From NCBI RefSeq assembly GCF_018350175.1, contig NC_058368.1:89220001-89284000 (forward strand): a DNA stretch of 64,000 nucleotides. Reading direction: 5' to 3'. Shown piece after piece: positions 1,740-51,032 of the stretch. The notes under the pieces were generated by a model, which saw only the letters and a program-made list of their open reading frames with translations, made no database searches and was not told the DNA's origin. The stretch comes from Felis catus. Lineage: Eukaryota. The position numbers and the translations under genes were made by a program. How positions within the stretch are numbered: the stretch's first letter is position 1; each line of letters opens with the position of its first letter.

Positions 1740-1857
1740 GATGAAAAAGTCCGTGATGCTGGGCTCTCACAGCCCCCAGAGTCCCAGAAGTCAGAGAGCT
1801 CATTGTGGCATTAATAGGAGAGTTCTGCCCCTATGCCTGGCTTCCCACTTCACTTAG
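1740..1857 (+). other. Candidate internal 5'UTR (non-coding) exon of the OR at 4256
   Basis: Acceptor ctttcccaacAG| and donor cacttag|GTgctc are both kept in the inverted paralog. 1753-1797 is a 45/45 match to 30739-30783. Confidence 0.4.
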
Positions 1858-2689
1858 GTGCTCCCTCTGTTTCTGTTCCTCATCCCACTTGTGTTTTTGC
1901 TTTCCCCCTGATCCTTCCTTCTTAGCATCTGTGTTCTCTCTTTCTCACTAAGTCTATGTTCCCTGCCCTCTATTACATTGTCTCTGTTTTCTTTTCTTTT
2001 TTTTTTTTTTTTTTTTTGTCTCTTCTGGGAGATAACATTTCTGATGGTCTAACATTTTCTGTATTTTTCTCCTGTATCTTGTCTCCTTTAGCTTGACATT
2101 TTCTCATTACTCCTTTCATCTCTCCCTTCTTCCTTTGGTCTACTGTTACTGTTGCTCTCCCTTTAACTCCTCATCCTTTCATTCATGACTCACTGCATTC
2201 TGTGCTGTCACTCTGTGAGGCATACTGTCATGCCCTAGGACAGGACTCTAAATCTGCTCTAAGTGTATGACTGTAGTGTGTATGGCCAGGTAGCTCTGAC
2301 AACAGAGATCCCATACAACACCCTAGATGTGACATCAAGAATAGTATACAGTGTTACTTTCTCTGTAAAAAAAAGTTAACAACAATTTCTTACTTTTACT
2401 TGAAAAATTCCTAGTTGTTTCTTGTACAATTTTTTAAAATATTATGCTACAAAGTAAGCTTAAAAAGACAAGATATGCCAGATACATTACTTACCTGCTT
2501 ATATGACAATCTTCGCTTACATTCAAGGAATACACAAAGAAATTCTTGTCAAAAATTGAAATATTGCAGGTCAAACTAGAGTCCTTTTTTTGACCCTAAT
2601 CCCCACCCAATTCTAACCCTTTCTCCAAGGTAATTATTGTTATCATACTCTGTGTCCTTTAGTAATTTATGTATAGTTTTTGCTCGTAT

Positions 2690-13696: not shown

Positions 13697-16600
13697 TATT
13701 TTTTTGTGCTTAAAGGACATTTAAAACAAAATACCCCCAAAGTAACAACTTTTAGCATAATCAGGAAAGACACAAGTACTGATTTAGGAGAAGGGGAGAT
13801 GCAGCAAAGTGGACACTAGGCTTGCCTCGTTCCATGAACACAATTAGATAACTATCAAATCATCCTTAACACCCTAGAAATCAACCTGAAAGCTGACAGA
13901 ACAAACTTCCCAACTAAAGGGAGAGAAGAGGCCATTTTGAAGAAGGTAAGAAGTATGGAGATGTGGTTTGGGGGAGAAATGGATCACAGGTGTTTGGAAA
14001 ATCACCTGTGTTTGGATCACAGTGTTTGCAGCTGTGGTTACAGAGAAAGAGAGAGAGAGAAGCAATCAAGGGAATGCACAAGGATAACATTTCCCCAAAG
14101 CCACAGGCTTGGAAAATGAGAGGGGTTGAATATGTGAATTCTTGCAACCATCATGGCTTAAAGCATGGAGTTTTAAAGGTCAATGGGCTTGGCTGGGATA
14201 AAGTCTTGAGGGCATTACACTGCTCCTGGAGAGAAGACAGGCAAACAACATCAGGGAAGAAAACACAGAAAAGTGATCTGAAGAATTCCTAGGCACGTAG
14301 GGGAGAGATTATTTGCTTTCTTCAGAGAATGTCCCTGAAATGAAGTATTTATGGAGATGCTTCTCCAGGAACAAAGGAGCTGGCCAGCACCATTTTCCTC
14401 CCCCACCACTCAACACAGAACCACCTGTGGGAAGCAGTGCACTGATAGCACTGGCTGCATAATGTGCTTACACCAAGCCCCAACACCCTGTGCTCCAGTG
14501 GGAGCCCTTTCTCAGTCATGCTTTCCTCAGTCCCAGTGTAATAGGCCACTCACCCAGAAGACCACCACAAACCTATGCCCACACCACATCTACTGATCAG
14601 AGAGTTTGTTAGGGCCTCAGTTCTGGTGGCAGTACTGACAAGTCTCATTTCATAAGCAGACAAGAACATACCTAGCTAAAACTCACTACATTCAGGCCAG
14701 GGACAAAACACTGCCCACAGTAGGCAAAGAGAGCCCCTACAGATGACTGGCCAGAAGGATAGAGCTACCAAAACACAAGAGCAGAGTCCATGCAGCACAC
14801 ACTGGAAGCACTCCCTGAAGCACCCAGGCCCTGGACACATATATGAACTCTTCTTCATAAGGCCATTACTTTCAGGAGCAGGAGACATAACTGGCTTTTG
14901 TAACACACAGAAGAAGGCAGAGACTTAGAAAAAATGCCAAGTCACAGGAATTTAGCACAAATGAAAGGACAGGATAAGGCCACAGACAGAAATCTAAGCA
15001 AACAGATATAAATAACATGCTTGATGGAGAATTCAAAGCAACAATCATAAGGCTACTCACTGAGCTTGAGAAAAGGATAGAAGACATCAGTGAGACCCTT
15101 ACCACAGAGATAAAAGAGGTAAAAAGTATCAATAAGAGATGAAAAATGCAATAAAAGTGATTAGAAACAGGATTGATGCAATGAAAAGCAGGCTGGAAGA
15201 ATCAGAGGAATGAATTAGTGACTTGAAAGACAAAATAATGGAAAGTAACAAAGCTGAACAAAAAAAAAAAAAGAAAAAAATTATGCAACACAAATACAGA
15301 CTTAGGGAACTCAGTGACTCCATTAAACACAATAACATTCATGTTATAAGAGTGCCAGAAGAAGACAGGGAAAAAGGGGTAGAATATTTCAATAAATAAT
15401 AGTTGAAAAATTCCATAACTTGGAGATGGAAACGGAAATGCAAATCCAGGAGGCACAGAGAACTCCCATCAAATTCAACTAAAGCAGCCCAAAACAAAGC
15501 ATATTGTATCTAAATTTGCAAAATATAGTGACACAGAAAAAATCTTAAAAGCAGCAGAACAAAAGAAATCCTGAAATTACAAGGGAAATCCCACAAGTCT
15601 AGCTGAAGATTTCTCAAAAGAAACTTGGTAAGCCAGAAGTGAGTGGCATTATATATTCAAAGTCCTGAACAGGAAAATCTGCAGTCAAGAATACTCTATC
15701 CAACAAGGCTATCATTCAGAATAGAGGAGAGATAAAGAGTTTCCCAGACAAACAAAAGCTAGGAGTTTGTGACCACTGAAACAGGCTGAAAGAATTATTA
15801 TGAAGGACTCTGAGTGCAAAGGTGAGAACAAAAGTGACAATGACAAGAAAAGATCAGAGAAAATCTCCAGAAACAATGACAAAACAAGCAGAAATTGGCA
15901 ATAAATACATATCTATCAATAATTTCTGAGTGTAAGTGGACTTTAGTCCACGTGATTTATGTTCCAATCAAAAAGTATGGGGTATCATAATGGATTAAAA
16001 AAAAAATACCAGAGATGACTGAGAAGATGGCAGCATAGGAGGATGCTGGGCTCACCGCGTGTCCTGCTGATCACTTAGATTCCACCTACACCTGCCTAAA
16101 TAACCCAGAAAACCGCCAGAGGATTAGCAGAATGGAGTCTCTGGAGCCAAGCGCAGATGAGAGGCCCAAGGAAGAGGGTAGGAAGAGCGGCGAGGCGGTG
16201 CGCGCTGCACGGACTGGCGGGAGGGAGCCGGGGCGGAGGGGCAGCCTGCTGGCCAAGCAGAGCCCCCCGAGTCTGGCTGGCAAAAGCAGAGGGACCAGCC
16301 GGACTGTGTTCTGACAGCAAGCGCGACTTAGCGTCTGGGAGGTCATAAGTTAACAGCTCTGCTCAGAAAGCGGGAAGGTGGAAGACAAAGGGAGGGAGAG
16401 CTGGTGACCCCCCGGATGACAGAGCTCAGTTTGGTGGGGAACAAAGGCACTCGCCAGCGCCATCTCCCTCGCCCATCCCCGAGCCAAAATCCCAAAGGGA
16501 ACCAGTTCCTGCCAGGGGACTTGCTCGCTCCGCGCAAACACCCAACTCTGTGCTTCTGCGGAGCCAAACCTCCGGCAGCAGATCTGACTCCCTCCAGCTG

Positions 16601-16941
16601 CCACAGGGCCCCTCCTGAAGTGGATCACCTAAGGAGAAGCGAGCTAAGCCTGCCCCTCCTGCCCCCGTGCACCTTGCCTACCCACCCCAGCTAATATGCC
16701 AGATCCCCAGCATCACAAGCCTGGCAGTGTGCAAGTAGCCCAGACGGGCCAGGCCACCCCACAGTGAATCCCGCCCCTAGGAGACGGGAAGAGAAGGCAC
16801 ACACCAGTCTGACTGTGGCCCCAGCGGTGGGCTGGGGGCAGACATCAGGTCAGACTGTGGCCCCGCCCACCAACGCCAGTTATACACCACAGCACAGGGG
16901 AAGTGCCCTGCAGGTCTGCACCACTCCAGGGACTATCCAAA

Positions 16942-17836
16942 ATGATCAAGTGGAAGAATTCCCCTCAGAAGAATCTCCAGGAAATAACAACAGCTAATGA
17001 ACTGATCAAAAAGGATTTAAATAATATAACAGAAAGTGAATTTAGAATAATAGTCATAAAATTAATCGCTGGGCTTGAAAACAGTATACAGGACAGCAGA
17101 GAATCTCTTGCTACAGAGATCAAGGGACTAAGGAACAGTCAGGAGGAGCTGAAAAACACTTTAAATGAAACGCAAAACAAAATGGAAACCACGACGGCTC
17201 AGATTGAAGAGGCAGAGGAGAGAATAGGTGAACTAGAAGATAAAGTTATGGAAAAAGAGGAAGCTGAGAAAAAGAGAGATAAAAAAAATCCAGGAGTATG
17301 AGGGGAAAATTAGAGAACTAAGTGATACACTAAAAAGAAATAATATACGCATAATTGGTATCCCAGAGGAAGAAGAGAGAGGGAAAGGTGCTGAAGGGGT
17401 ACTTGAAGAAATAATAGCTGAGAAGTTCCCTGATCTGGGGAAGGAAAAAGGCATTGAAATCCAAGAGGCACAGAGAACTCCCTTCAGACGTAACTTGAAT
17501 CGATCTTCTGCACGACATATCATAGTGAAATTGGCAAAATACAAGGATAAAGAGAAAATTCTGAAAGCAGCAAGGGATAAACGTGCCCTCACATATAAAG
17601 GGAGACCTATAAGAATCGTGACTGATCTCTCTTTTGAAACTTGGCAGGCCAGAAAGGATTGGCACGAGATCTTCAGTGTGCTAAACAGAAAAAATAAATA
17701 GCCGAGAATCCTTTATCCAGCAAGTCTGTCATTTAGAATAGAAGGAGAGATAAAAGTCTTCCCAAACAAACAAAAACTGAAAGAATTTGTCACCACTAAA
17801 CCAGCCCTACAAGAGATCCGAAGTGGGATCCTGTGA
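16942..17836 (+). pseudogene. L1 ORF1p (frameshifted)
   Basis: MIKWKNSPQKNLQE... coiled coil, a frameshift in the A-run at ~17285, and a stop at ~17700. Confidence 0.9.
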
Positions 17837-17886
17837 GACAAAGTACCAGAGACATCACTACAAGCATAAAACATACAGACATCACA

Positions 17887-20800
17887 GTGACTCTAAACCT
17901 GTATCTTTCTATAATAACACTGAATGCAAATGGATTAAATGCGCCAACTAAAAGACATAGGGTATAAGAATGGATAAAAAAACAATACCCATCTATATGC
18001 TGTCTACAAGAGACTCATTTTAGAGCTGAGGACACCTTTAGATTGAGAGTGAGGGGATGGAGAAATATTTATCATGCTACTGGAACCCAAAAGAAAGCTG
18101 GAGTAGCCATACTTATATCAGACAAACTAGACTTTAAATTAAAGGCTGTAACAAGAGATGAAGAAGGGCATTATATAATAATTACAGGGTCTATCCATCA
18201 GGAAGAGCTAACAATTATAAATGTCTATGTGCCGAATACCGGAGCCCCCAAATATATAAAACAATTACTCATAAACATAAGCAACCTTATTGATAAGAAT
18301 GTGGTAATTGCAGGGGACTTTAACACTCCACTTACAGAAATGGATAGATCATCTAGACACACAGTCAATAAAGAAACAAGGGCCCTGAATGATACATTGG
18401 ATCAGATGGACTTGACAGATATATTTAGAACTCTGCATCCCAAAGCAACAGAATATACTTTCTTCTCAAGTGCACATGGAACATTCTCCAAGATAGATCA
18501 TATACTGGGTCACAAAACAGCCCTTCATAAATTCACAAGAATTGAAATTATACCATGCATACTTTCAGACCACAATGCTAGGAAGCTTGAAATCAACCAC
18601 AGGAAAAAGTCTGTCAAACCTCCAAAAGCATGGATGTTAAAGAACACCCTACTTAAGAATGAGTGGGTCAACCAGGCAATTAGAGAAGAAATTAAAAAAT
18701 ATATGGAAACAAACAAAAAAGAAAATACAACAATCCAGACACATTGGGATGCAGTGAAGGCAGTCCTGAGAGGAAAATACATTGCAATCCAGGCCTATCT
18801 CAAGAAACAAGAAAAATCCCAAATACAAAATCTAACAGCACACCTAAAGGAAATAGAAGCAGAACAGCAAAGACAGCCTAAACCCAGCAGAAGAAGAGAA
18901 ATAATAAAGATCAGAGCAGAAATAAACAATATCGAATCTAAAAAAACTGTAGAGCAGATCAATGAAACCAAGAGCTGGTTTTTTGAAAAAATAAACAAAA
19001 TTGACAAACCTCTAGCCAGGCTTCTCAAAAAGAAAAGGGAGATGACCCAAAGAGATAAAATCATGAATGAAAATGGAATTATTACAAACAATCCCTCAGA
19101 GATACAAACAATTATCAGAGAATACTATGGAAAATTATATGCCAACCTGGAAGAAATATTGGACAACCTGGAAGAAATGGACAAATTCCTAAACACCCAC
19201 ACTCTTCCAAAACTCAATCAGGAGGAAAGAGAAAGCTTGAACAGACCCATAACCAGCGAAGAAATTGAATCGGCTATCAAAAATCTCCCAACAAATAAGA
19301 GTCCAGGACCAGATGGCTTCCCAGGGGAGTTCTACCAGACGTTTAAAGCAGAGATAATACCTATCCTTCTCAAGCTATTCCAAGAAATATAAAGGGAAGG
19401 AAAACTTCCAGACTCATTCTATGAAGCCAGTATTACTTTGATTCCTAAACCAGACAGATACCCAGTAAAAAAAGAGAACTACAGGCCAATATCCCTGATG
19501 AATATGGATCCAAAAAATCTCCGTAAGATACTAGCAAATAGAATTCAACAGCATATAAACAGAATTATTCACCATGACCAAGTGGGATTCATTCCTGGGA
19601 TGCAGGGCTGGTTCGACATTTGCAAATCAATCAACGTGATACATCACATTAATAAAAAAAAAAGATAAGAACCATATGATCCTGTCCATTGATACAGAAA
19701 AGGCCTTTGACAAAATCCAGCACCCTTTCTTAATAAAATCCCTTGAGAAAGTCGGGATAGAAGGAACATACTTAAAGATCATAAAAGCCATTTATGAAAA
19801 GCCCACAGCTAACATCATCCTCAACGGGGAAAAACTGAGAGCTTTTTCCCTGAGATCAGGAACACGACAGGGATGCCCACTCTCACCGCTGCTGTTTAAT
19901 ATAGTGCTGGAAGTTCTAGCATCAGCAATCAGACAACAAAAGGAAATGAAAGGCATCAAAATTGGCAAATGAAGTCAAGCTTTCGCTTTTTGCAGATGAC
20001 ATGATATTATACATGGAAAATCTGATAGACTCCACCAAAAGTCTGCTAGAGCTGATACATGAATTCAGCAAAGTTGCAGGATACAAAATCAATGTACAGA
20101 AATCAGTTGCATTCTTATACACTAACAATGAAGCAACAGAAAGACAAATAAAGAAACTGATCCTATTCACAATTGCACCAAGAAGCATAAAATACCTAGG
20201 AATAAATCTAACCAAAGATGTAAAAGATCTGTATGCTGAGAATTATAGAAAGCTTATGAAAGTAGTTCAAGAAGATATAAAGAAATGGAAAGACATTCCC
20301 TGCTCATGGATTGGAAGAATAAATATTGTCAAAATGTCAATACTACCCAAAGCTATCTACACATTCAATGCAATCCCAATCAAAATTGCACCAGCATTCT
20401 TCTCAAAACTAGAACAAGCCATCCTAAAATTCATATGGAACCACAAAAGGCCCCAAATAGTCAAAGTAATTTTGAAGAAGAAGACCAAAGCAGGAGGCAT
20501 CACAATCCCAGACTTTAGCCTCTACTACAAAGCTGTCATCATCAAGACAGCATGGTATTGGCACAAAAACAGACACATAGACCAATGGAATAGAATAGAA
20601 ACCCCAGAACTAGACCCACAAACGTATGGCCAACTCATCTTTGACAAAGCAGCAAAGAACATCCAATGGAAAAAAGACAGTCTCTTTAACAAATGGTGCT
20701 GGGAGAACTGGACAGCAACATGCAGAAGGTTGAAACTAGACCACTTTCTCACACCATTCACAAAAATAAACTCAAAATGGATAAAGGACCTGAATGTGAG

Positions 20801-21719
20801 ACAGGAAACCATCAAAACCCTAGAGGACAAAGCAGGAAAAGACCTCTCTGACCTCAGCCGTAGCAATCTCTTACTCGACACATCCCCAAAGGCAAGGGAA
20901 TTAAAAGCAAAAATGAATTACTGGGACCTTATGAAGATAAAAAGCTTCTGCACAGCAAAAGAAACAACCAACAAAACTAAAAGGCAACCAACGGAATAGG
21001 AAAAGATATTTGCAAATGACATATCAGACAAAGGGCTAGTATCCAAAATCTATAAAGAGCTCACCAAACTCCACACCTGAAAAACAAATAACCCAGTGAA
21101 GAAATGGGCAGAAAACATGAATAGACACTTCTCTAAAGAAGACATCCGGATGGCCAACAGGCACATGAAAAGATGTTCAGCATCGCTCCTTATCAGGGAA
21201 ATACAAATCAAAACCACACTCAGGTATCACCTCACGCCCGTCAGAGTGGCCAAAATGAACAAATCAGGAGACTATAGATGCTGGAGAGGATGTGGAGAAA
21301 CGGGAACCCTCTTGCACTGTTGGTGGGAATGCAAATTGGTGCAGCCGCTCTGGAAAGCAGTGTGGAGGTTCCTCAGAAAATTAAAAATAGACCTACCCTA
21401 TGACCCAGCAATAGCACTGCTAGGAATTTATCCAAGGGATACAGGAGTACTGATGCATAGGGCCACTTGTACCCCAATGTTCATAGCAGCACTCTCAACA
21501 ATAGCCAAATTATGGAAAGAGCCTAAATGTCCATCAACTGATGAATGGATAAAGAAATTGTGGTTTATATACACAATGGAATACTACGTGGCAATGAGAA
21601 AAAGTGAAATAGGGCCTTTTGTAGCAACGTGGATGGAACTGGAGAGTGTGATGCTAAGTGAAATAAGCCATACAGAGAAAGACAGATACCATATGGTTTC
21701 ACTCTTATGTGGATCCTGA
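17887..21719 (+). pseudogene. L1 ORF2p (endonuclease / reverse transcriptase), disrupted
   Basis: [26 protein letters not shown] and CWWECK motifs. The start is ATG>GTG; stops at ~17965, 19390, 20997 and ~21078; frameshifts at ~19660 and ~19968. Confidence 0.95.
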
Positions 21720-24700
21720 GAAACTTAACAGGAACCCATGGGGGAAGGGAAGGAAAAAAAAAAGAGGTTAGAGTGGGAGAGAGCCAAAGCATAAGAGACT
21801 GTTAAAAACTGAGAACAAACTGGGGGTTGATGGGGGGTGGGAGGGAGGGGAGGGTGGGTGATGGGTATTGAGGAGGGCACCTTTTGGGATGAGCACTGGG
21901 TGTTGTATGGAAACTAATTTGTCAATAAATTTCATAAAAAAAAAAAAACAAAAACTGAGAACAAACTCAGGGTTGATGGGGGGTGGGAGGGAGGAGAGGG
22001 TGGGTGATGGGTATTGAAGAGGGCACCTTTTGGGATGAGCACTGGGTGTTGTATGGAAACCAATTTGACAATAAATTTCATATATTGAAAAAAAAAGACC
22101 AATGAATACAGTGCCTACAAGGGACTCATTTATACCTGAAGCCACATTCAGATAAAAAGTGAGGAGATGGAGAAATATTTACCATGCAAATGGATGTTAA
22201 AAGAAGCTGGAGTAGCAATACTTATATCAAGAAAACTAGGCTTTATTTTTTATTTTTTGTTTTTTAAATTTTTTTTGAGAGAGAGAGACAGAGACAGAGC
22301 GTGATTGGGGGGAGGGGCAGAGAGAAGAGGGAGACACAGAAACTAAATCAGGCTTCAGGCTCTGAGCTGTTGGCACAGAGCCCAACACAGGGCTCAAAAT
22401 CATGGATGGTGAGATCATGACCTGAGCCAAAGTCGGATGACCAACCGACTGAGCCACCCACATGCCCTAGACTTTAAAACGAAGATTGTAACAAAAGATA
22501 AAGAAGGGCATTATAGGGGCTCCTGGGTGTCTCAGTCAGTTTAGTGTCCGACTTTGGTTCATGTCATGATATCATGGTTCATCGGTTTGAGCCTCGCATC
22601 AGCCTTTGTGCTGACAGCTCAGAGCCTGGAGCCTACTTTTGATTGTGTCTCCCTCTCTCTCTGCCCCTCCTGCACTTGTGTGTTCTCTCTCTCTCTCTCA
22701 AAGATAAATAAACATAAAAAAATGTTTTTAGGAGAAGGGCACTATACCATCATAAAGGGGAAAATGCAACAAAAAGATATAACAATTCTAAGTATTGATG
22801 CACCTAATGTGGAAGCACCAAAATATATAAAACAATTAATAAAAGACATAAAGGAACAAATCAATAGTAATACAATAATAGTAGGGGACTTTAACACCAA
22901 CTTACATCAATAGACAGATCATCTAAGCAGAAAATCAACAAGGAAACAATGCCTTTGAATGACACACTGGACTAGGTGGACTTAACAGATATGTTCAGAA
23001 TATTTCATCCTAAAACAGCAGAATACACATTCTTTTCCAATGCATATGGAACATTCTCCAGAATAAATCATATATTAGCCCACAAAACAAGCTGCAACAA
23101 ATTCAAGAAGATTAAAATCTTTGAAACCATATTTCTTTTTTTAAATGTAATTTATTGTCAAGTTAGTTAATATACAGTGTATGCAGTGTGCTCTTGGCCT
23201 TGGGAATAGATTCCCAAGATTCATCGCTTACATACAACACCCAGTGCTCATCCCAACAAGTGCCCTCCTCAATGCCCCTCCCACCCATTTCCCCAACCCT
23301 TCTTTTATGGCCACAATCCTGTGAAACTAGAAGTCAATCACAAGAAAATATCTGGAAAGACCACAAATACATGGAGGGTAAAGAACATCCTACTAAACAA
23401 TGTATGTGTCAACCAGGAAATCAAAGAAGCAATAAAATAAAGTACATGGAAACAAATGAAAATGAAAATGCAATATTCCAAAACTTTTAGGATGCAGCAA
23501 AAGTGGTCCTAAAAGGGAAATACATAGCAATACTGGTCTACCTTAAGAAGCAAGAAAAATCTCAAATAAATAACCTAATGTTACACCTACAAGAGCTAGA
23601 AAAAGAACAACAAACAAAGCCTAAAGGCAACAGAAGAAAGGAAATAATAAAGATTAGGGATGATATAAATGATATAGAAACTAAAAAATAATAAAGCAGA
23701 CCAATAAAACCAATTTTGAAAATTTTGAATTTTGAGAAGACTTTGAATTTTGAAAAAATTAACAAACTGACAAACCTATAGCCAGACTTATCAAAAAGAA
23801 AAGAGGAGAGAAAGAGGAAAGCCAACATGGTAGAGAAGTAGAGTGATCTGTACTTCCCATGTCTCTCAAACAAAGAAGTGTTGAAGCCAAAGGACTTTGA
23901 ACCCCAAGAGTCTAGGAGAAAAAGAGACTGAGTCTAAAAGGGAGACACCGGGACATCTTTGAAGGGCTATAGGTGGGTGATTGTGAATTGAGGAAGATAA
24001 AATGGGTCACATAGGCATGAGAGGAGGGATCCCCTTTTGTGTAGAGACAAAGGAAGAGAAAAGGTGGGTTGGGAAGCGTACGACTGTATCTGAACAAGAG
24101 ATAAACCTCAACTGGGACTGAGAGGGATCCCATCTCTGACTGAAGGGCTTTCTTCCGACTGGGGCCAGCTGCCCCATTCGTGCACCTGAGGAGGAGGAGA
24201 GCCAGCCCCCAGTTTGGTGGTAGGTCAGGGGTGCAGTCCACAGTAGGAGAAAGCAGTCCCTTCCCTGGAGTGCTGCCACACTGACAAAGCCAGCCAGGAC
24301 CACATATCAAGCAGCACAGAGAGGCACATCCCCAGTGCCACAGTGCATGGAGCAGGACTTTGAATCCTAGCCAAGCGCCAGGTCAGGGGAGTCAGTGGAG
24401 CGAGAAGGACCACCCTGTCTGCACTCTCAGAAGAGTGAGAACAACTCAAATGGAGTCCACTGGGTTCGTGGAGAAGAGACTGGGGAATCACCATTTTTCT
24501 CCACCACCACCACCAAGGTGGGGCCTCAGGGATTGATCCCTGGGCCCATTATGAAGGTGGGACCAGCCTACACCAAACCACACCCTTCTTCACTGGGTAA
24601 CTGCGTATCTGCATGAGCCAGATAGATGCTGTGCAACCAGACAGCTCCGTCATCCAGACCAGTGATGCTGTATAGCCTGGATTAATTCCAGGACAATTCT

Positions 24701-25101
24701 TGTTATTTACACATATTCTCCCTTCCTATCTTCCCCCCCCCCCCCCCTAGGCTGGTTACTCTGGTTGTTGGCTTATTTAGGCAGAAATATTTAATCCATT
24801 CCCTTGATACATGTTCTACATCTCCTTCTGTACTTTTCTTTCTCTCTCTGGAATAATCAAGCCATATAGTTTCTCTGCCTGGGTAACTATCTTTGTTTTT
24901 CTGTTGCCACATCCTTCTTTATTTTCCTTTCTCTCTCTCTCTGGATTAAGCCATTTAGTCTCTCTGCCTGGTCAATGTTTATTCTCTCTTTGTCCCTGCC
25001 CTTGTCATTACTCTGTATGTGGTCTTCCATCAGCACCGCCCCCACCCTGTTCTTTATTGTAGCTGGTGTTCCTCCTTTTGGACTGGTTTTTCCTTTTGGA
25101 C

Positions 25102-25103
<2 letters not shown>

Positions 25104-25142
<39 letters not shown>
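25104..25142. repeat. (TG)n microsatellite in the L1 5'UTR
   Basis: Read directly from the sequence. Confidence 0.95.
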
Positions 25143-25143
<1 letters not shown>

Positions 25144-25694
25144 GTCTGTTTTGTCTGTGTGTTTGTGTGTCTTTGTTTCCTGTTTTTTTGTCTGTTTTCC
25201 TTTCCAGGGCTGCTTCAAGGAACAAATCAAAGCACACCTGGTGGAAGGCCCAAAAATCACTATGAGTAGAGAAATAAAGTCACAACAGAGAGCAAATAAC
25301 ACTCTCCAAAAAACCACCTCCTGAAGGGCCAGGCCCTGGACATAATATGACCTCCCTTTAATATAGCAGTGCTGAAAGGTGCAGAGCACATAACAAGCAT
25401 TTAAAACTCATAAGCAACAGAAAACTACACAAAATGACAAAATGGAAGAATTACCCAGAAAATAAATTCCAAGAAGTGACAGCTAAAGAATTGATCAAAA
25501 CAAATGTAAGCAATACAAATGAACAAGAATTTATAATAATAGTCATAAGATTAATTGCTGGGCTTGAAAAAGGCATAGAAGACAGCAGAAAATCTATTAC
25601 TTCCCAGATCAAGGAACTAAAAAATAGTTATGATGAATTAAAAAATGCTACAAATGAGGTACAAAATAAAATGGAGGTGGCCACAGCATGGATT

Positions 25695-25733
25695 GAAGAA
25701 GAAGAAGAAGAAGAAGAAGAAGAAGAAGAAGAA
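25695..25733 (+). repeat. (GAA)13 expansion in the L1 ORF1 coiled coil
   Basis: Read directly; other copies have gaagaggcagag here. Confidence 0.95.
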
Positions 25734-27654
25734 GGGAGAATAGGTGAATTAGAATATAAACTATGGATAAAGAGGAAGCTGAGAAAAAGAGAGATAAAAA
25801 ATCCAGGATCAAGAGGGGAGAATTAGTGAACTAAGTGATGCAATCAAACGGAACACTATCTGTAGCACAGACATTCCAGAAGAAGAGAAAGAGAAAAGGG
25901 GCTGAAGGTGTACTTAAACAAATCATAGCTGAGAACTTCCCCAATCTGGGCAAGGAAACAGACATTCAAGTCCAAAAGCACAGAGAACTCCCTTCAAACG
26001 TAACTTGAATTCATATTCTACATGACATATCATAGTGAAACTGGCAAAATACAAGGATAAAGAGAGAATTCTGAAAACATCTAGGGATAAACGGGCCTTA
26101 AATACAAAAATATACACATACGGGTAGTAGCAGACCTATCTACTCAAAGTTAGCAGGCCATAAAAATGGCAGGAAATCTTCAATGTGATGAAAAGGAAAA
26201 ATATGCAGCCAACAATCCTTTATCCAGCAAGCCTGTCACTCAGAATAGAAGGAGAATAAAGGTTTTCCCAAACAAAAATTGAAGGAATTCATCACCACTA
26301 AACCAGCCCTACAAGAGATCCTAAGGGGGACTATGTGAGTGAAATGTTGCAAGGACCACAAGGTACCAGTGACAACACTACAAGCATGAAAGCCACAGTT
26401 AACACAATGATTCTAAACCCATATCTTTCATAATAACACTGAATATGAATGGACTAAATACTCCAACCAAAAGACATAGGGTATAAGAATAGATATAAAA
26501 AAAATAAGACCCACCTATTTGCTGTCTACAAGAGATTCATTGTAGACCTGAGGACACCTTCAGACTTAAAGTGAGGGGATGGAGAACTATCTATCAAGCC
26601 ACTGGAAGTCACAAGAAACTGGGGTAGCCATACTTATATCAGATAAACTAGACTTTAAATTAAAGGCTGTAACAAGAGATGAAGAATGGCATAATAATTA
26701 TAGAGTCTATCCATCAGGATGAGCTAAAAAATTATCAATGTCTATGTGCCAAATACGGGAGCCCCCAAATATATAAAACAATTAATCACAAACATCAGCA
26801 ACCCTACTGATATGAATGGGGTAATTGCAGGGGACTTTAATACTCCACTTACAACAATGGATAGATCATCTAGACACAGGATCAATAAAGAAACAAGGGC
26901 CCTGAATGATACATTGGACCAGATGGACTTGACAGATATATTTAGAACTCTGCATCCCAAAGCAGCAGAATATACTTCTTCTTGAGTGGACATGGACATT
27001 CTCCAAGATAGGTCACATAATGGGTCACAAACCAGCCCTCCATAAATATAAAAGAATTGAGATCATACCATGCACACTTTCAGATCACAATGCTGTGAAA
27101 CTTGAAATCAACCACAGGAAAAAGTCTGGAAAGCCTCCAAGAGCATGGAGGTTAAAAACATCATACAATGAAACAAATGGGTCAGCCAGGCAATTAGGGA
27201 AGTATTAAAAAATATATGGAAACAAATGAAAATGAAAATACAACAATCCAAACGCTTTGGGATGCAGCAAAGGCAGTCCTGAGAGGAAAATACATTGCAA
27301 TCCAGGCTTATTTCAAGAAACAAGAAAAATCCCAAATACAAAATCTAACAGCACACCTAAAGGAACTGGAAGCAGAACAGCAAAGACACCCCAAACCCAG
27401 CAGAAGAAAGCATATAATGAAGATCAGAGCAAAAATAAACACTATACAATTTAAAAACAAAAACAAAAAACAGTAGAGCAGACCAATGAAACCAAGAGTT
27501 GGTTTTTTGAAAAACTAAACAAAATTGGAACACCTGGGTGGCTCAGTCGGTTAAGCCTCTGACTTCAGCTCAGGTCATGATGTCACAGTTCATGAGTTCG
27601 AGCCCTGCATCAGGCTCTGTGCTGACAGCTCAGAGCCTGGAGCCTGCTTCAGTT

Positions 27655-27711
<57 letters not shown>

Positions 27712-30700
27712 AATAAATAGACATTAAAAAATTTTTTAAGTAAAAAAATAAAAAATATTTATATACACCTCTGGTCAGTCTTCTCCAAAAGAAAAGAGAG
27801 AGGACCCAAATAGATAAAATCATGGATAAAAATGGATTTATCACAACCAATCCCTGAGAAATACAAGCAATTATCAGGGAATACTGTGAGAAATTATATG
27901 CCAACAAACTGGACAACCTGGAAGAAATGGACAGATTCCTAAACACCCACACACTACCAAAACTCAAACAGGAAGAAATAGAAAATTTTAACAGACCCAT
28001 AACTAGTGAAGAAATTGAATCAGTTATCAAAAATCTCCCAACAAATAAGAGTCCTGGGCCAGATGTCGTCCCTGGGGAATTCTACCAGACATATAAGCAG
28101 AGTTAATACCTATCCTTCTCAAGCTGTTCTAAAAAATAGAAAGGGAAGGAAAACTTCCAGACTCATTTTATGAAGCCAGCATTACTTTGATTCCCAAACC
28201 AGACAAAGGCCCAGCAAAAAAGAGAACTACAGGCCAATATCCCTGATGAATATGGAAGCAAAAATTCTCAATAAGATACTAGCGAATCGAATTCAACAGC
28301 ATATAAAAAGAATTATTCACCATGATCAAGTGGGATTCACTCCTTGGCTGCAGGGCTAGTTCAACATTCACAAATCAATCACTGTGATACATCATATTAA
28401 TAAAAGACAGGATAAGAACCATATAATACTGTCACTAGATGCAGAAAAAGCATTTGACAAAATACAGTGTCCTTTCTTAATAAAATCCCTTGAGAAAGCT
28501 GGAACATACAGAAACTTCATAGAAGCCATTTATGAAAAGCCCACAGCTAATATCATCCTCAATGGGGAAAAAGTGAGAGCTTTCCCCCTGAGACATGGAG
28601 CATGACAGGGATGTCCACTCTTGCCACTGTTGTTTAACATAGTGTTGGAAGTTCTAGCATCAGCAATCAGACAACAAAAGGAAATCAAAGGCATCAAAAT
28701 TGGCAAAGATTAAGGCAAAGTTTCACTTTTTTGCAGATGACATGATACTCTACATGGAAAACCCGACAGACTCCACCAAAAGTCTGCTAGAACTGCTACA
28801 TGAATTTAGCAAAGTTGCAGGATACAAAATCAATGTACAGAAATCAGCTTCATTCTTATACACTAATAATGAAACAACAGAAAGACAAATAAAGAAACTG
28901 ATCCCATTCACAATCGCACCAAGAAGCATAAAATACCTAGGAATAAATCTAACCAAAGATGTAAATTCTGTATGCTGAAAACTATAGAAAGCTTATGAAG
29001 AAAATTGAAGAAGATATAAAGAAATGGAAAAACATTCCCTGCTCATGGATTGGAAGAATAAATATTGTCAAAATGTCAATACTACCCAAAGCTATCTACA
29101 CATTCAATGCAATCCCAATCAAAATTGCACCAGCATTCTTCTCGAAACTAGAACAAGCCATCCTAAAATTCATATGGAACCACAAAAGTCCCTGAATAGC
29201 CAAAGTAATTTTGAAGAAGAAGACCAAAGCAGGAGGCATCACAATCCCAGACTTTAGCCTCTACTACAAAGCTGTAATCATCAAGACAGCATGGTATTGG
29301 CACAAAAACAGACACATAGACCAATGGAATAGAATAGAAACCCCAGAACTAGACCCACAAACGTATGGCCAACTCATCTTTGACAAAGCAGGAAAGAACA
29401 TCCAATGGAAAAAAGACAACCTCTTTAACAAATGGTGCTGGGAGAACTTGGCAGCAACATGCAGAAGGTTGAAACTAGACCACTTTCTCACACCATTCAC
29501 AAAAATATACTCAAAATGGATGAAGGACCTGAATGTGAGACAGGAAACCATCAAAACCCTAGAGGACAAAGCAGGAAAAGACCTCTCTGACCTCAGCCGT
29601 AGCAATCTCTTACTCGACACATCCCCAAAGGCAAGGGAATTAAAAGCAAAAATGAATTACTGGGACCTTATGAAGATAAAAAGCTTCTGCACAGCAAAGG
29701 AAACAACCGACAAAACTAAAAGGCAACCAACGGAATGGGAAAAGATATTTGCAAATGACATATCGGACAAAGGGCTAGTATCCAAAATCTATAAAGAGCT
29801 CACCAAACTCCACACCCGAAAAACAAATAACCCAGTGAAGAAATGGGAAGAAAACATGAATAGACACTTTTCCAAAGAAGACATCCGGATGGCCAACAGA
29901 CACATGAAAAGATGCTCAACGTTGCTCCTTATCAGGGAAATACAAATCAAAACCACACTCAGATATCACCTCACGCCAGTCAGAGTGGCCAAAATGAACA
30001 AATCAGGAGACCATAGATGCTGGCGAGGATGTGGAGAAACGGAAACCCTCTTGCACTGTTGGTGGGAATGCAAATTGGTGCAGCCACTCTGGGACACAGT
30101 GTGGAGGTTCCTCAGAAAATTAAAAATAGACCTACCCTATGACCCAGTAATAGCACTGCTAGGAATTTATCCAAGGGATACAGGAGTACTGATGCATAGG
30201 GGCACTTGTACCCCAATGTTTATAGCAGCACTTATGGAAAGAGCCTAAATGTCCATCAACTGATGAATGGATAAAGAAATTGTGGTTTATATACACAATG
30301 GAGTACTACAGGGCAATGAGAAAGAACGAAATATGGCCCTTTGTAGCAACGTGGATGGAACTGGAGAGTGTGATGTTAAGTGAAATAAGCCACACAGAGA
30401 AAGACAGATACCATATGTTTCCACTCTTATGTGGATCCTGAGAAACTTAACAGAAACCCATGGGGGAGGGGAAGGAAAAAAAAAAGAGGTTAGAATGGGA
30501 GAGAGCCAAAGCATAAGAGACTCTTAAAAACTGAGAACAAAAAATAAGAAAACAAAAACAATGTAGTAGAGGGCAGGGAACATATGGTGAGAAAGAGAAC
30601 ACAGATGCTAAAAGGGAAGGATCAGGGGAAAGGCAACAACACGAATGGGATGAGGAACAGAAACAGAAGGAGCACCTGAGTGAAGTGGGAAGCCAGCCAT

Positions 30701-31169
30701 AGGGACAGAGTTCTCCTATTATCAATGCCACAGTGAGATCTCTGACTTCTGGGACTCTGGGGGCTGTGAGAGCCCAGCATCACAGACTCTTTTATTCTGA
30801 TGGGAAAGATAGTGGAATAGACCACGTTGCCTGCAAACCCCTCTAGCACTCTTTGGAAGTCCTGCCATGTCAAGGTCTTCCCATAGCAGCCCCTGGCCCT
30901 TTAGTAACCAGAAACATCTTACCCCAACTTTAACAGGGACAACAGTCATGGCCTGACCCTTTCCAGCTTCCTCTCTCACCATTGGACATGTTCAAGAACC
31001 TTGCCTGTCCCAAGTGACAAGGGTTCCATGTAATAACCTGCAAGGCTAAAATCAGAATATCCAAACATCTCAGGCTTGTCCCAACTTTCCTCTCCAAATT
31101 AATATGCCAAATCTCACTCATGTCTCTACCAGCTAGACCCTATGCTTGCATTCACATCAACCCATCTGC

Positions 31170-32440
31170 CTGGAATGACTTCATTTATTCAACAGATATT
31201 TTTTGAGCACTTACTATGTGCCAGCCACTATGCTACATGCTAGGAATCAAGTGAACAAGGAGACACAGTCTCCTCCTGGGAGCTGACACTCTTGCTGACC
31301 CTTTCCCCCTACCTCTGAAATCTGCACTCTTCCATCAATTCCCTCTCCATCTGTGATCACTCCTCTTTCTTATAGTGCTTGGTGTTTAGAATCCGTAAGT
31401 TGCTGATTGATCAAGTTTTGTCTTGTTGATCAACAGAACATCAAAGGTTACTAGTGTGGGGATCTATAAACTCTGAAATGTATGAAAACCTGGTGCTTAT
31501 GTGCGTAGTTCTGGTCCAAAATTTTTATTACATTTCCCTAAAAAGTGAAAAGACCCTACTTTTTATTGTTGAATTGAAGTTATTTATCTTGTCGTGGTAT
31601 TTACATTTTCAAGATGAATTTCACAATGTTATGGTATGTTTACTAAGCACAAAGACCTTGAGTGTGATTCCTGTGTGCTCCACATATTACCTATGCACAC
31701 CTGATTGGAGATTGTCATTTGTTTGATGGAATTGAAGGAGGCTCCTGGATCCTGAAGGATAACTGGAATATCCAAGGCTGAGTAGAAACTGATTATATAT
31801 TCAGGGATAAGGACAAGGCAAACCCTGAGGCAGAGAGAAGAAAGCAGTGTTGATGGGGGAGGCAAGCTGAGCACATTGGCTGAGCAGCAGACTCACAGAG
31901 GGAAGCAGTGGAGGAAGACTGGTCCTGAACAACAGGTTGAGGAGTTGGGACTTTATACATCACTAAGTCATAGTTAAGAGCTAAGATTCAGCCAATTAAT
32001 AGCTTTGGGCAAGTGCTCACTGAAGCTTTCATCTCATCTGCAAAATGAGGATAAGAATAATTACCTTCTATAGTTGTTATAAAGATTAAAAGGACTCGTG
32101 TGCTAAAAAAACACCAGACATTTGCACAGTTCACCCAGAAAAAGCTAAACAAATGGTGGCCATTGTTGCTGTTGATTGAAGAAGCTGGTCCAAGGCTGTT
32201 CACAGGATGGCGGAGAGATGGAGGGACCTAAGAAGGGTCTCTAAAAGACATAAAAATAAACTTTGATGGTACAAACAGAAGAGGGACACCAGCTGTGTAA
32301 TATTGGACAGGTTTCTTAATCATTCTGAACCCCAGTTTCATCATGTATAGTGGCTGTGAGGATAAAATAAGATAATGAATGTAAAAGCCCCTATTCTAGT
32401 GTCTGGCACATAGTAAGTATCCAATACAAAGTGACAGCTA
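31170..32440. mobile_element. Ancient L2 (~31170-31290) and MIR (~31985-32170, ~32290-32440) relics
   Basis: tttattcaacagatattttttgagcacttactatgtgccag (L2 3' end) and ttgggcaag..tcatctgcaaaatgaggataa (MIR core). Confidence 0.6.
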
Positions 32441-34020
32441 TTGAGAAGTATACAATCTCCAACACTTAGTATGCTCTGTACAAATGTGGTAGAAAGATAA
32501 AGGAGGAGGGAAGTTTTTTTAAAAGCACATTGCATTGGAAATCAGAATTTTCAAGTTGAAAGGGAAATTGGATGCTTATTACTCTCTTATCAGATGCATT
32601 TATTGATTTTCAATGTGTTTTCATAAATTGACCAGATAAACTGATCTTTACAAATGAAAAAGGCACCAATCAATGTAATCTAAGACCTTGCTGCCATTTG
32701 AGATGCACATTTCTCCTGACAAACTACCAAGGGAGTACAACACAAATAGTTTTAGTTGGGCAACAGTGAGAGATATTAGGGCAGGAAAGTCCTTCTATGT
32801 CCCCCATATCAGACTTGCCAGAGCCCTAGACTATGCATGAGAGACTCTTGCAGAGCTGTGCAGAAGAATTTCATCAAGGAGCCCATCAGTAGAAAGGGGA
32901 AAAGTCAAACTCAGGGCAACTTTCTCAAAGAGAAATGAAACTGTGGAATTGGAAGAGAAGGGAAAAAATACCAAAAACCAAAGCATGCTTTTCAAAATAA
33001 TGGCAGATCCCTAACTGTCCTTCAAGAAGAAGGGGTATAGGAGAAAATATCCAAATGGAAAAATATATACAAGGTGTGGAGAAGAAGCAAGGAGAAACAT
33101 TTTCCCAAGAGTTAGAAACATGGGTCAGCAAGAGGCAACTTCACCACTCTCATTCAAAATCTAACAGCCAGATGTCATCAGGAAAGTTAGCTTTCCCAAT
33201 ACCCTAGGGGGCCCATTTCAGAAGGTCTATCCATTGTCACATCCTCTCTAAACTTTAAAAGACAAAACAGTCCCCATCTTTCTTAAAACCTCTGGTGAGA
33301 CGCTGAGGAATTCACTTCCTCTTCTGGGTCTCAGTCTCTCAAGCAGTAACACGATAGGTTGGATGAAACAACTCTCAGGTCATCCCTTGAACTAATCACA
33401 GAACAAATAATTAGGAGGTAGAAACCCATGCCAGAAACAAAATCTAACCACACAAGAGGTCTCTACCTCAGTAGAAATAGTAAGGAGGTGAATGGCAAAA
33501 GTAGTTGTAGGGTGAATAAACATTTTAAGCATTTGATAACAGAAGGAGAAATACAAGACACATAAAGGAAGAATCTTACCTGAAGCCATGCAATCAATAA
33601 CATCAGGAAGGGCCTGGAAGTGAGGAGGGAAGGTCAGGAGTCTCGACCCCTTTGTCCTTGGAAAACAGACTTCACCAAGGGAGGGCTGCTCTAATCAGTT
33701 GGGTCTGCAACAGGATCTCTTTCAGTGCAGGGAAGCCAGTGAGCCTCCATCTCCTTAGAAGGAAATGGAGCTTAAATGGAAAAAGGGAAGACCTTCTGTT
33801 AGAGAAACAAAGTTTCAAAAAAAAAAAAAAAAGACTTGTGTAGTCAGAACTCGTCTAGAATCTCTCCTGTTTTGTGAAATTGGGAGTTGACTGAGGTGTT
33901 TGGGGCACTCCCCATTCACAGGTAGGCATGCTTGATGCCTTCCATGAGGACTGTGGAAAGGTTTTAAAGAAATGCATTAGGATTGGTTAAAATGGGAAGA
34001 AAATGGGTTCTGAAAAAAGG

Positions 34021-34049
34021 GACACACATGCGCATGCGCATGCACACAG

Positions 34050-34082
<33 letters not shown>

Positions 34083-34090
34083 GCACATAC
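34021..34090. repeat. Imperfect (CA)n microsatellite
   Basis: Read directly; absent from paralog copy 1. Confidence 0.9.
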
Positions 34091-35279
34091 AAAACCTAGA
34101 AGAGTAAGCTTCATCCTAAAACCTTGTTGGAATAATTAGTGGTTAAGAAAAAGTCTTCCAGAAACAACAATTGTAGCACAGAGAGATCATATATCTTATT
34201 CAAAAGGAAGGCAAGGTGGCCTTCCTTGCCACCTTTGTAGGACTCAGGAAAAAGCCTCTCGCTCATGGATGAAACCCCTCACTGGACCAGGGACAACATT
34301 TGAGTGAGAAGTTTATTCCCTCACTTCTCACTGCTACCCATTGTTCTTCCCCTCTGCTGTGACTAGGGAAAGTTGCTTCTATTTTCACAAATCCTTGGAG
34401 ACCCCTCCTCTGTCACATCTCTGTCCCTAGTCTCTGGCAATTAAACCTCCTAGGGAAGGCAGCCTCCTGCGAAGTTCTCTGCTCACCTCAGCTACAACAA
34501 CAAGCAAACTCTCTCCCAGGAGAAGGAGGAGGGGAAAACTGGGGAGGGTTTCTATAGTTCAACCTGGGAAGAATTGGCTCTCCCTCCATTCCATAAAAAG
34601 AATAGGGAACATTGGCTTTTGTTCTGTGTTCTGTGTTGTGTGTTTTGTTCTGTGTTATGTCCCACTTGGAAATATCCACTAAATACTGTATGTAAGCAAA
34701 GGGAATTTTCCAGAGACTTCCAGAGTGTCACTCCTCTACATCTTTCTGCCTCCTCCCAATACCTCAGCCTAATGAGGAAGCAACCATCCAAGGTCCCATT
34801 GACGCTTCTTATCTCAGAGCTCAATTCCACTGGAATTCAAAGAAGTCTTCAAGAGGTCAAGGGTTCAACAAACACCCTGCCATGACCAAGAGTTCATCTT
34901 TCTCTGACATTGACCACCTCCTACTACTCTCCTGTCAGCTCCTACCCACTTGACTTTCTCTCCTATTAAGAAATTCACACAAATAAAGGTAGCATAGCAC
35001 AGACACTTGACCTTGAAGTCAGACAGAGCTGGGTGGGAATCTTTTACAGATTTGACATTGGGCAAGGGATTAATCTGAACTGTTTTCTCATGTGTGAAAT
35101 GATAATGATGATGTTAACTACAAATATTCCTTGTGAGCATTAATTGAATAAAATATCTGAAGTGTTCTCCCTGTTTACAGGTTCTAAGAATTGTAGTTAC
35201 TAGTGTCACTGCCCTCCCATCTCTCTTAAGCCCAAAAGCAGATACAAAATACAGACTTTAAAAAAATCGTTAATAAATA

Positions 35280-50086: not shown

Positions 50087-51032
50087 TCAGTGCTGGCTGC
50101 CAATCCTGCAATGGTTCAGACCTTTCCTCAGGGCCTCCATCACGTGCCGATTCCTCAAGCTATAAATGAGGGGGTTGAGCATAGGAGTAAGGACCATGTA
50201 GATGATAGAGACAACCTTGTCATGACTAGGGGCCTGGTAGCGCCGAGGCCTCAGGTAGATGAACATGGCTGCCCTGTAGAAGAGGGAGACAGCTGCTAGG
50301 TGGGAGGAACAGGTGGCCAGGGCCTTTTTACAGGCCTGAGCAGAGTGCATGTGGAGCACAGCCCTCAGGCTGTGAGCATAGGAGGCCACTATGATGGAAA
50401 AGGGAAGGAGCAGCATGAAGACACAGAAGCAAAGAGCAGAGTGTCAAAAAGGGTTGTGTCCATACAGGCCAGTTTTAATAAAGCTGGTACCTCACAGAAG
50501 AAGTAATCCACATTCCTTGAGCCACAGTAAGGTAAGCTCATGGCTGCCACCATCTGGATAATTCCATCTAGTATCCCAAAGGCCCAGGAACTCCCAGAAA
50601 TCTGGAGACAGACTCTGACTCATGAGGACAGTATAGTGAAGGGAGTGGCTGATTGCCACATAACAATCATAGGCCATGAGTCCCAGAAAAATTCCCTCAG
50701 ATCCCACAAGAGAGACAAAAAAACCAATTTGTATGCCACAACCCACAAAGGAGATGGACTTCCTGCCAGAGAGAAAAGTTGACCGCCATCTTTGGCATGA
50801 TATTACAGATCAAAATAAGATCCATAAGGGAGAGCTGACTGAGAAAGAAGTACATGGGTGTGTGAAGCCAAGGATCTGTGTAGATGAGGAAGATGAAGAG
50901 GACATTCCCACAGAGGGCCACAGTGAAGACTACCATAACCACAGAGAAGAGGACAACACCAGTCTGGCTATGGGAAAAGATGCCCAAGAGGATGAAGCCA
51001 TCTATAGATGATCGATTCAACCATATCCCCAT
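50087..51032 (-). pseudogene. OR2V1: OR2V1-like olfactory receptor pseudogene
   Basis: The fragments MGIWLNRSSIDGFILLGIFSHSQT..., GCGIQIGFFVSLVGSEG..MAYDCYVAISH and ...RPRRYQAPSHDKV...RKGLNHCRIGSQH match OR2V1 as I recall it. Frameshifts are +1 (~50775), -2 (~50614) and -1 (~50427), giving 946 nt against 948 expected. DRY is changed to DCY. A splice acceptor (ttctcag|gtg) lies at 51054/51053. Confidence 0.92.

What the first reader, a model, noticed from the sequence alone, without database searches (positions are those of the whole stretch)
30541..34353. Orphan OR promoter: an inverted paralog of the intact OR's upstream region with no coding exon
Seen: this region is a colinear reverse-complement paralog of 1-~2000. 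It keeps the 30-bp core (33653-33682), the CTGATTAG site, a good donor (TTCAG|GTAAGA at 33580/33579) and a second candidate exon. By analogy with copy 1, a minus-strand OR CDS should lie roughly 1.5-2.3 kb left of 30541. Instead there is L1, and I see no minus-strand OR remnant between 5206 and 30540. Established: OR loci whose CDS is deleted can still be chosen by olfactory neurons, which then switch to another OR. Inference: this is a natural CDS-less OR locus that may still fire, transcribing antisense through ~20 kb of L1 toward the intact paralog and competing for OR choice.
Basis: partly seen in the sequence, partly recalled or inferred. Interest (0 to 1): 0.72.

Follow-up and report, generated by a model that had tools for sequence, protein, structure and literature searches.

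The report
Leftover smell-receptor promoter, gene lost
This is a real, old copy of the upstream region of a cat-family smell-receptor gene that has no coding exon behind it; it is most likely a decaying leftover of gene duplication and loss, and it likely faces its working twin only because of a later DNA flip, so it is ordinary apart from an untested chance that it is still switched on.

Summary
30541-34353 (P2) is an inverted paralogue of 1-~2017 (P1), the upstream region of an intact OR2T26 (4256-5206): 82% identical over 1,921 columns, with no OR remnant in 5206-30540. P2 lies 20 kb downstream of an OR2V1 pseudogene, on the same strand. That is where mouse, rat, dog and badger keep OR2T26, and badger has two in tandem. 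P2 ends at a 5-bp microhomology inside a young L1 that lacks its last 129 nt, which reads as a deletion joint. New here: the intact gene is the one out of line. It is opposite to OR2V1, and in tiger and leopard the single intact copy points the ancestral way. So P1 plus its CDS was likely inverted later, perhaps at the chimeric L1 near 29.0 kb. The convergent layout is then an accident of rearrangement. The 30-bp core is not special (P=0.15 in shuffles; longer identical runs lie elsewhere). P2 keeps 1 of P1's 3 weak O/E-like sites, and 31 poly(A) hexamers lie on its strand before the twin. Transcription and the assembly joint were not tested. Verdict: an ordinary OR birth-and-death relic with a probable felid inversion; low interest.

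The parts
30541..34353 (-). P2: orphan paralogue of the OR2T26 upstream region (candidate promoter, first exon, proximal intron); homology continues to the window's left edge, so it may extend beyond 34353
33653..33698 (-). 30-bp run identical to P1 603-632 (holds one weak O/E-like site) and the CTGATTAG homeodomain-like site
   Evidence: motif names recalled
33574..33583 (-). candidate splice donor CAG|GTAAGA at 33580/33579 (P1: AAG|GTAATA at 706/707)
   Evidence: predicted only
30974..32698 (-). 1.7 kb present only in P2; holds stretches that look like old MIR/L2 repeats (recalled), and a short similar word (CA[A]ATGG) stands at both edges, so it was more likely deleted from P1 than inserted in P2
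   Evidence: no repeat library was available
30676..30796 (-). candidate second exon (P1 1740-1857); weak donor; in P2 it starts with an AATAAA that P1 lacks
   Evidence: predicted only
30536..30547 (.). joint between P2's T-rich intron tract and an L1 3' UTR that lacks its last 129 nt; about 5 bp (TTTGT) are shared with P1's continuation
23806..30541 (+). L1b: chimeric L1 (SINE at ~27528-27742); 11.0% from L1a left of ~29007 and 3.6% right of it; no convincing target-site duplication; the old L1 it sits in does not resume on its right
13809..23805 (+). older L1 (L1c), cut off in ORF2 at 23805, with the younger L1a (~16010-22090, 14 of 16 bp target-site duplication) nested in it
1..2017 (+). 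P1: paralogous upstream region of the intact gene
4256..5206 (+). intact OR2T26 orthologue, 316 aa, candidate acceptor at 4250/4251
   Evidence: same cluster as dog NP_001375887.1 OR2T26; 99% to Lynx/Puma/Acinonyx
50087..51032 (-). OR2V1 pseudogene with at least three frameshifts; the strand anchor for the synteny argument
   Evidence: 91-95% to hyena OR2V1 in the two cleanly aligned pieces, 63-73% to OR2V2 proteins

Best explanation
P2 is the upstream region of a second OR2T26 copy with no coding exon behind it, likely a decaying relic of an old tandem duplication whose CDS was deleted, and it likely faces the intact copy only because P1 and its CDS were inverted later. Step 1 (inferred): OR2T26 duplicated in tandem downstream of OR2V1 at about the time of the cat-dog split (K about 0.2), with patchy later homogenisation. 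Step 2 (joint shown, content inferred): after a young L1 had inserted beyond the OR2V1-proximal copy, a deletion joined that copy's T-rich intron tract to the L1's 3' UTR at a short microhomology, removing the rest of the intron, the CDS and the L1's last 129 nt. Step 3 (orientation difference shown, mechanism inferred): after the split from Panthera, the block holding P1 and the intact CDS was inverted, probably by recombination between an old and a young L1 of opposite sense, which left the chimeric L1b at about 29.0 kb. Step 4 (untested): P2 may still give short, low-level sterile transcripts in olfactory neurons like other OR pseudogenes; they would end within a few kb, and the cell would go on to choose another OR.
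For: Paralogy and absence of a CDS. OR2T26 lies downstream of OR2V1 on the same strand in 4 of 4 species with both coordinates in hand: mouse 14.1 kb, rat 19.1 kb, dog 34.5 kb, badger 27.3 kb. Cow also has OR2T26-like genes there, in a rearranged array. A CDS behind P2 would start 22.7 kb from OR2V1 on that strand. Badger has two tandem OR2T26 genes 41.7 kb apart. In the window the intact gene is on the strand opposite to OR2V1. Tiger and leopard list one intact OR2T26, pointing away from OR2V2 as in mouse and badger. Their OR2T26-OR2V2 distances (73.8 and 66.7 kb), minus an OR2V1-OR2V2 spacing of 20-25 kb, give 42-53 kb, which fits the distal copy (46.8 kb here) better than a CDS behind P2. 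L1b is 3'-truncated at a microhomology, is chimeric (likelihood-ratio statistic 76) and has unmatched flanks; chimeric elements with unmatched TSDs are the published signature of L1-mediated inversion (PMC2603318). About 60% of human OR pseudogenes are expressed, at lower levels (PMC4982115).
Against: No outgroup DNA upstream of OR2T26 was available, so P2-like sequence was never seen next to a CDS in another species. Dog has a single OR2T26 and no listed pseudogene. The badger pair differs at 1 site in the first 400 nt by eye and may be a recent, separate duplication. OR2V1 is not listed for Panthera (the table seems to hold intact genes only) and OR2V2 is not in the window, so the Panthera comparison rests on the OR2V1-OR2V2 head-to-head pair being unchanged. 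The chimeric L1 is explained equally well by an L1-L1 deletion or by gene conversion with L1a. The assembly joint was not checked with reads.
Confidence: 0.55

Rival explanations
1. Promoter swap: P1 and P2 were already inverted repeats, and recombination between them flipped the 28.5 kb between them, moving the single CDS from behind P2 to behind P1. In Panthera the orphan would then be on the P1 side.
For: P1/P2 homology ends at the same T-tract in both copies. Divergence is patchy (K 0.10-0.46 per 100 columns; best window 93%, p=0.0025), as exchange between the copies would give. Flipping this block puts the CDS exactly where outgroups have it.
Against: It predicts OR2T26 22.7 kb from OR2V1, hence an OR2V1-OR2V2 spacing of 44-51 kb in Panthera against 20-25 kb in mouse, rat and badger. 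Recombination between repeats that are 18% diverged is inefficient (general knowledge). It does not explain the chimeric L1.
Confidence: 0.13
2. The second CDS was not deleted but displaced: an L1 inserted into P2's intron by internal priming at the A-rich site, and the later inversion carried the rest of the intron and a (pseudo)CDS to the left of the window.
For: The joint is at a T-rich tract of the kind L1 targets; the inversion's other end must lie outside the window; the gene tables for Panthera seem to hold intact genes only.
Against: No second felid OR2T26-like cluster among the 120 best protein hits, although a copy 90% or more alike would be hidden in the same cluster; it needs an unusual insertion mode.
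Confidence: 0.12
3. Partial duplication: only the upstream region was ever copied, and P2 never had a CDS.
For: Dog has one OR2T26; each carnivoran in the protein sample seems to have one (15 of 331 members of the main cluster were listed).
Against: The duplication is old (K 0.2) but P2's end is joined to a much younger L1 (3.6%), so the present end is not the original end of the duplicated block. P2 holds the ancestral position.
Confidence: 0.1
4. One reading: P2 is an active CDS-less OR locus that is chosen in olfactory neurons and transcribes antisense across the L1 block towards the intact twin, lowering its choice.
For: HD-like site, one O/E-like site and a strong donor remain. CDS-deleted OR alleles are chosen in mice and the cells then express other ORs (PMC4967819). 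About 300 bp of OR promoter can drive OR-like expression (PMC12547500). Sterile OR RNA can suppress other ORs (PMC10765522).
Against: Motif survival is expected without selection; 2 of 3 O/E-like sites are lost and P2's single site equals the shuffle expectation of 0.95; 31 poly(A) hexamers lie on the path; sterile alleles are not stably chosen; the convergent layout seems lineage-specific.
Confidence: 0.06
5. Assembly artefact: the inversion or the joint at 30541 is a misjoin inside L1 repeats.
For: Both candidate breakpoints lie in L1 sequence; no read-level check was obtained.
Against: 30400-34400 is held at 0.93-0.99 of 415 sampled words by 14 of 24 listed runs of the same species, from 10 studies, one of them possibly the source. 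This shows that P2 exists, not that the joint is right. The joint has a natural microhomology.
Confidence: 0.04

Closest known systems
OR pseudogenes from birth-and-death evolution (transcribed class II OR pseudogenes; PMC4982115)
   Same: A duplicated OR locus that lost coding capacity and keeps its upstream region; may be transcribed at a low level.
   Different: The whole coding exon is absent rather than disrupted, so CDS-based OR annotation would not count it.
Engineered CDS-deleted or sterile OR alleles in mouse (deltaM71-LacZ, PMC4967819; tetO-P2(nc), PMC10765522)
   Same: OR upstream region with no OR protein product.
   Different: Those alleles keep the intact native locus or are driven by tTA and were shown to be chosen; P2 is 18% diverged from the working copy, ends in antisense L1, and has no expression data.
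L1 recombination-mediated inversions and deletions (PMC2603318)
   Same: [quoted passage not shown]
   Different: Only one breakpoint is in view; the reciprocal chimeric L1 was not seen.
P element, a promoter-like OR enhancer (PMC12547500)
   Same: A promoter-related sequence with HD and O/E motifs and no CDS of its own inside an OR cluster.
   Different: No sign of special conservation of P2's motifs; fewer O/E-like sites than the working paralogue; no enhancer data.

Membership tests
Paralogue of the OR2T26 upstream region | Significant colinear homology to the sequence upstream of an OR2T26 CDS | tested here: met
   neighbour identified as OR2T26
Paralogue of the OR2T26 upstream region | Position and strand of OR2T26 relative to OR2V1 in outgroups | tested here: met
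   same strand, 20.5 kb downstream of the OR2V1 pseudogene start; outgroups 14-34 kb
CDS-deleted OR pseudogene | No OR coding remnant downstream in cis | tested here: met
   tblastn, blastn, nhmmer over the window
CDS-deleted OR pseudogene | A CDS stood there in the ancestor | tested here: inconclusive
   badger tandem pair and synteny favour it, dog's single copy does not; no outgroup DNA upstream of the CDS
Active OR promoter | HD and O/E motifs above chance near the start | tested here: inconclusive
   HD-like site kept; one O/E-like site with 2 mismatches against 0.95 expected; P1 has 3 (consensus recalled)
Active OR promoter | Transcription start, spliced RNA, open chromatin, Lhx2/Ebf binding in olfactory neurons | not tested
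   no reads were laid; no run listed is labelled as olfactory tissue
OR enhancer (Greek island, P- or H-type) | Conserved composite HD-O/E motifs and enhancer activity | tested here: inconclusive
   the core is not the best-kept part of the P1/P2 pair; activity not testable here
L1 recombination-mediated inversion | Chimeric L1 with unmatched TSDs at a breakpoint | tested here: met
L1 recombination-mediated inversion | Reciprocal chimeric L1 of opposite sense at the other breakpoint | not testable with these tools
   predicted about 11-27 kb left of the window; no whole genome is held
L1 recombination-mediated inversion | Orientation differs from sister species | tested here: met
   OR2T26 opposite OR2V1 here; same strand in mouse, rat, dog, badger; ancestral sense relative to OR2V2 in tiger and leopard

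The most novel reading that the evidence does not exclude
P2 is a natural, CDS-less OR locus that is still chosen in cat olfactory neurons and acts as a sterile competitor or promoter-derived enhancer for its neighbours. The P1/P2 pair plus the L1 block forms an invertible cassette, so OR2T26 is driven by P1 in some felids or haplotypes and by P2 in others: a natural promoter-swap test of how upstream DNA sets OR choice frequency and zone.
Probability: 0.08. Interest if true: 0.62.

Novelty: new member of a known kind. Interest (0 to 1): 0.27.

Why it matters
As read here it matters little: OR clusters gain, lose and flip copies often. Two modest points remain. CDS-based OR counts miss loci that kept the upstream region and lost the whole exon, so such relics are uncounted possible sinks of first OR choice. 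The locus also marks a probable small-cat inversion of OR2T26 that can be checked in existing felid assemblies. If P2 were active or could swap onto the CDS, it would be a natural version of the engineered CDS-deleted alleles used to study OR feedback.

Tried and rejected
Own-genome search: no whole genome is held, so sequence beyond the window could not be read. Metagenome scans for host DNA: the core motif gave 0 matches; the OR protein gave 2 distant OR loci of 63 candidate stretches (46% and 34% identity, contigs under 2 kb), which were not used. Run search: all named runs are the same species, so no cross-species test. No read-level result was obtained, so the joint and transcription stay open. 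The protein tree is the quick version, mostly unresolved inside Laurasiatheria, and was used only for orthology. Rejected: the 50-51 kb pseudogene as P2's CDS (it is OR2V1, 68% DNA identity to OR2T26, and lies upstream of P2); Or2o1 as the missing gene (far too distant for an 82% upstream match); the 30-bp core as a sign of selection; a segmental duplication of 13.8-23.8 kb and 35.6-45.3 kb (separate old L1s with different nested insertion sites). Conversion of L1b by an already decayed L1a is not favoured, as no shared frameshift was seen, but conversion is not excluded. A meerkat gene model that fuses an OR2O start to an OR2T26 end (P0059) was set aside as unreliable. Earlier-findings look-ups by relatives, near and sequence were blank. 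Literature searches (listings only, open-licence library) showed no paper on this locus in cats; the felid structural-variation paper cited in PMC11216403 was not read and may list the inversion.
Full report
1. Observation. Self-BLAST shows 273-1311 matching 34026-32973 (80%) and 1576-2027 matching 30973-30512 (80%) in reverse; weaker homology reaches window position 3. I call these P1 and P2. Over 1,921 aligned columns they differ at 17.8% (K2P 0.205). Searches with the CDS, the non-repeat parts of the intron beyond 2028 and the 3' flank found no counterpart between 5206 and 30540; the only other OR in the window is at 50087-51032. P2 has 1.7 kb (30974-32698) that P1 lacks. It holds what I recall as MIR/L2 pieces and has a short similar word at both edges, so it was more likely lost from P1.

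2. The motifs are not evidence of function. The longest identical runs are 45 bp and 38 bp, away from the core; shuffling match columns gives a run of 30 or more in 15% of 5,000 trials. Divergence is patchy, K 0.10-0.46 per 100 columns (best window p=0.0025), which fits conversion between the copies or uneven constraint. With a recalled O/E consensus and up to two mismatches, P1 has three sites near the core and P2 one, against about 0.95 expected in shuffles. If P2 has been unselected only since the L1 events below (1.8-5.5% per lineage), a 30-mer survives unchanged with probability 0.18-0.58.

3. The neighbours. The intact gene clusters with dog NP_001375887.1, OR2T26. The pseudogene at 50087-51032 is OR2V1: 91-95% to hyena OR2V1 in its two cleanly aligned pieces, 63-73% to OR2V2 proteins, with at least three frameshifts.

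4. The joint. P2 stops at 30541 in a T-rich tract. Left of it is the 3' UTR of a plus-strand L1 (L1b) that lacks the 129 nt, poly(A) signal included, that its sister copies have. P1's continuation after the T-tract and the L1 share about 5 bp at the joint, which reads as a microhomology deletion; an internally primed insertion would look similar. L1b begins at 23806 inside ORF2 of an older L1, and that older L1 does not resume on L1b's right or anywhere in the window in register; L1b has no convincing target-site duplication, while L1a has one (14 of 16 bp). L1b is chimeric: its 5' UTR is of another type than L1a's, and its distance to L1a falls from 11.0% (2,255 sites) to 3.6% (1,531 sites) at about 29007 (statistic 76). 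No shared frameshift points to conversion from a decayed L1a. So at least one rearrangement, probably two, hit this end long after the duplication. At a recalled neutral rate of 1-1.5 per 10^9 sites per year, 3.6% is 12-18 million years; if the young part came by conversion the joint could be older, up to the age of the 11% part.

5. Outgroups, from published tables. PMC7160942 (supplement 1 rows, part 25 read, trees and peptides seen in search hits; main text not read): Or2t26 is downstream of Or2v1 on the same strand in mouse (14.1 kb), rat (19.1 kb) and dog (34.5 kb); dog has one copy and no listed pseudogene; cow and horse have several copies. PMC13696124 (abstract, methods, table S4 parts 1, 3, 96, 97, 175 and five term searches; the file is cut, so only some of the 25 species are held, none of them viverrid or herpestid by name, and it seems to list intact genes only): badger has OR2O(-), OR2T26(-), OR2T26(-), OR2V1(-), OR2V2(+). 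Tiger and leopard have one motif-matching intact OR2T26, pointing away from OR2V2 at 73.8 and 66.7 kb. The tiger gene differs from the window's at 3 places in the first 400 nt by eye, so it is the same copy. In the window OR2T26 is on + and OR2V1 on -. P2 is therefore at the ancestral place and strand (a CDS behind it would start 22.7 kb from OR2V1), and the intact gene is the inverted one. That the window runs the same way as tiger chromosome A1 is supported by an OR cluster noted 2.54 Mb before the window, which matches tiger ORs near 86.3 Mb. OR2V2 itself is not in the window, so this step is inferred.

6. Mechanism. Best reading (0.55): an old tandem duplication; loss of the proximal copy's CDS at the 30541 joint; later inversion of P1 plus CDS, perhaps by L1-L1 recombination, for which chimeric elements with unmatched TSDs are the published signature (PMC2603318, passages). 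The Panthera distances fit a distal intact copy (42-53 kb from OR2V1 if the OR2V1-OR2V2 spacing is 20-25 kb) better than a CDS behind P2. Against it: dog's single copy, the near identity of the badger pair, no outgroup DNA for the upstream region, and other explanations of the chimera.

7. Could it fire? CDS-deleted alleles are chosen in mice and the cells express other ORs (PMC4967819, passages). Short promoters drive OR-like expression, with O/E and HD sites as key elements (PMC12547500 and PMC3247239, passages). Sterile OR RNA can shut down other ORs but is not stably chosen (PMC10765522, passages). 61% of human OR pseudogenes are expressed, at lower levels (PMC4982115, passages). Some residual firing is thus plausible (my estimate about 0.35-0.4) and would be ordinary. 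Read-through to the twin is unlikely: 5 AATAAA lie in P2's intron and 26 hexamers between 30541 and 5206 on that strand, the first at 26841; hexamers are not proven sites. No expression data were obtained. One search shows only that 14 of 24 listed runs of the species hold 0.93-0.99 of the sampled words of 30400-34400.

8. Verdict. It is a new member of a known kind: an OR pseudogene, here with the whole exon gone, beside a probable lineage-specific inversion. Searches listed no paper on this locus; subscription papers, including the felid structural-variation study cited in PMC11216403 (passages), and unseen supplements may cover the inversion. Interest 0.27.

Noticed in passing
window 4256-5206 vs 50087-51032: The intact OR2T26 is on the strand opposite to OR2V1, unlike mouse, rat, dog and badger, and unlike the sense implied for tiger and leopard: a probable inversion in this lineage.
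   Followed up: partly
window 50087-51032 (-), upstream ~55140-55860: OR2V1 pseudogene with at least three frameshifts; intact in hyenas, mustelids and bears in the protein list, not listed as intact in tiger or leopard. Its upstream region keeps a perfect O/E-type palindrome at 55619-55628 and a candidate donor near 55150, so it is a better candidate for a still-firing pseudogene than P2.
   Followed up: partly
window 21804-22096: The last ~147 nt of the L1a 3' end occur twice in tandem (93% alike), the second copy starting at the same A-rich word at which L1b is cut.
   Followed up: no
window 37736-44158: L1d has unmatched flanks in the old L1 it sits in (several hundred bases of the host L1 seem to be missing), which suggests an insertion-linked deletion.
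   Followed up: partly
window 1312-1700 vs 32983-32699 and 30948-30850: P1/P2 divergence jumps to K 0.31-0.46 here against 0.10-0.12 in neighbouring windows, on both sides of the 1.7 kb indel: the pattern of patchy gene conversion, which would make the duplication older than the mean K suggests.
   Followed up: partly
window ~5540-5800: A stretch after the OR 3' end looks like an old solo LTR (recalled features, no library check).
   Followed up: no
window 34027-34090: (TG)n microsatellite expanded in P2 only.
   Followed up: no
badger NC_060068.1 32.05-32.10 Mb (PMC13696124 table S4): Two tandem, nearly identical OR2T26 genes with different 3' ends (957 and 954 nt).
   Followed up: partly
P0059 (Suricata): A database protein fuses an OR2O-like first half to an OR2T26 second half; likely a wrong gene model, but it could reflect a different gene order in mongooses.
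   Followed up: no
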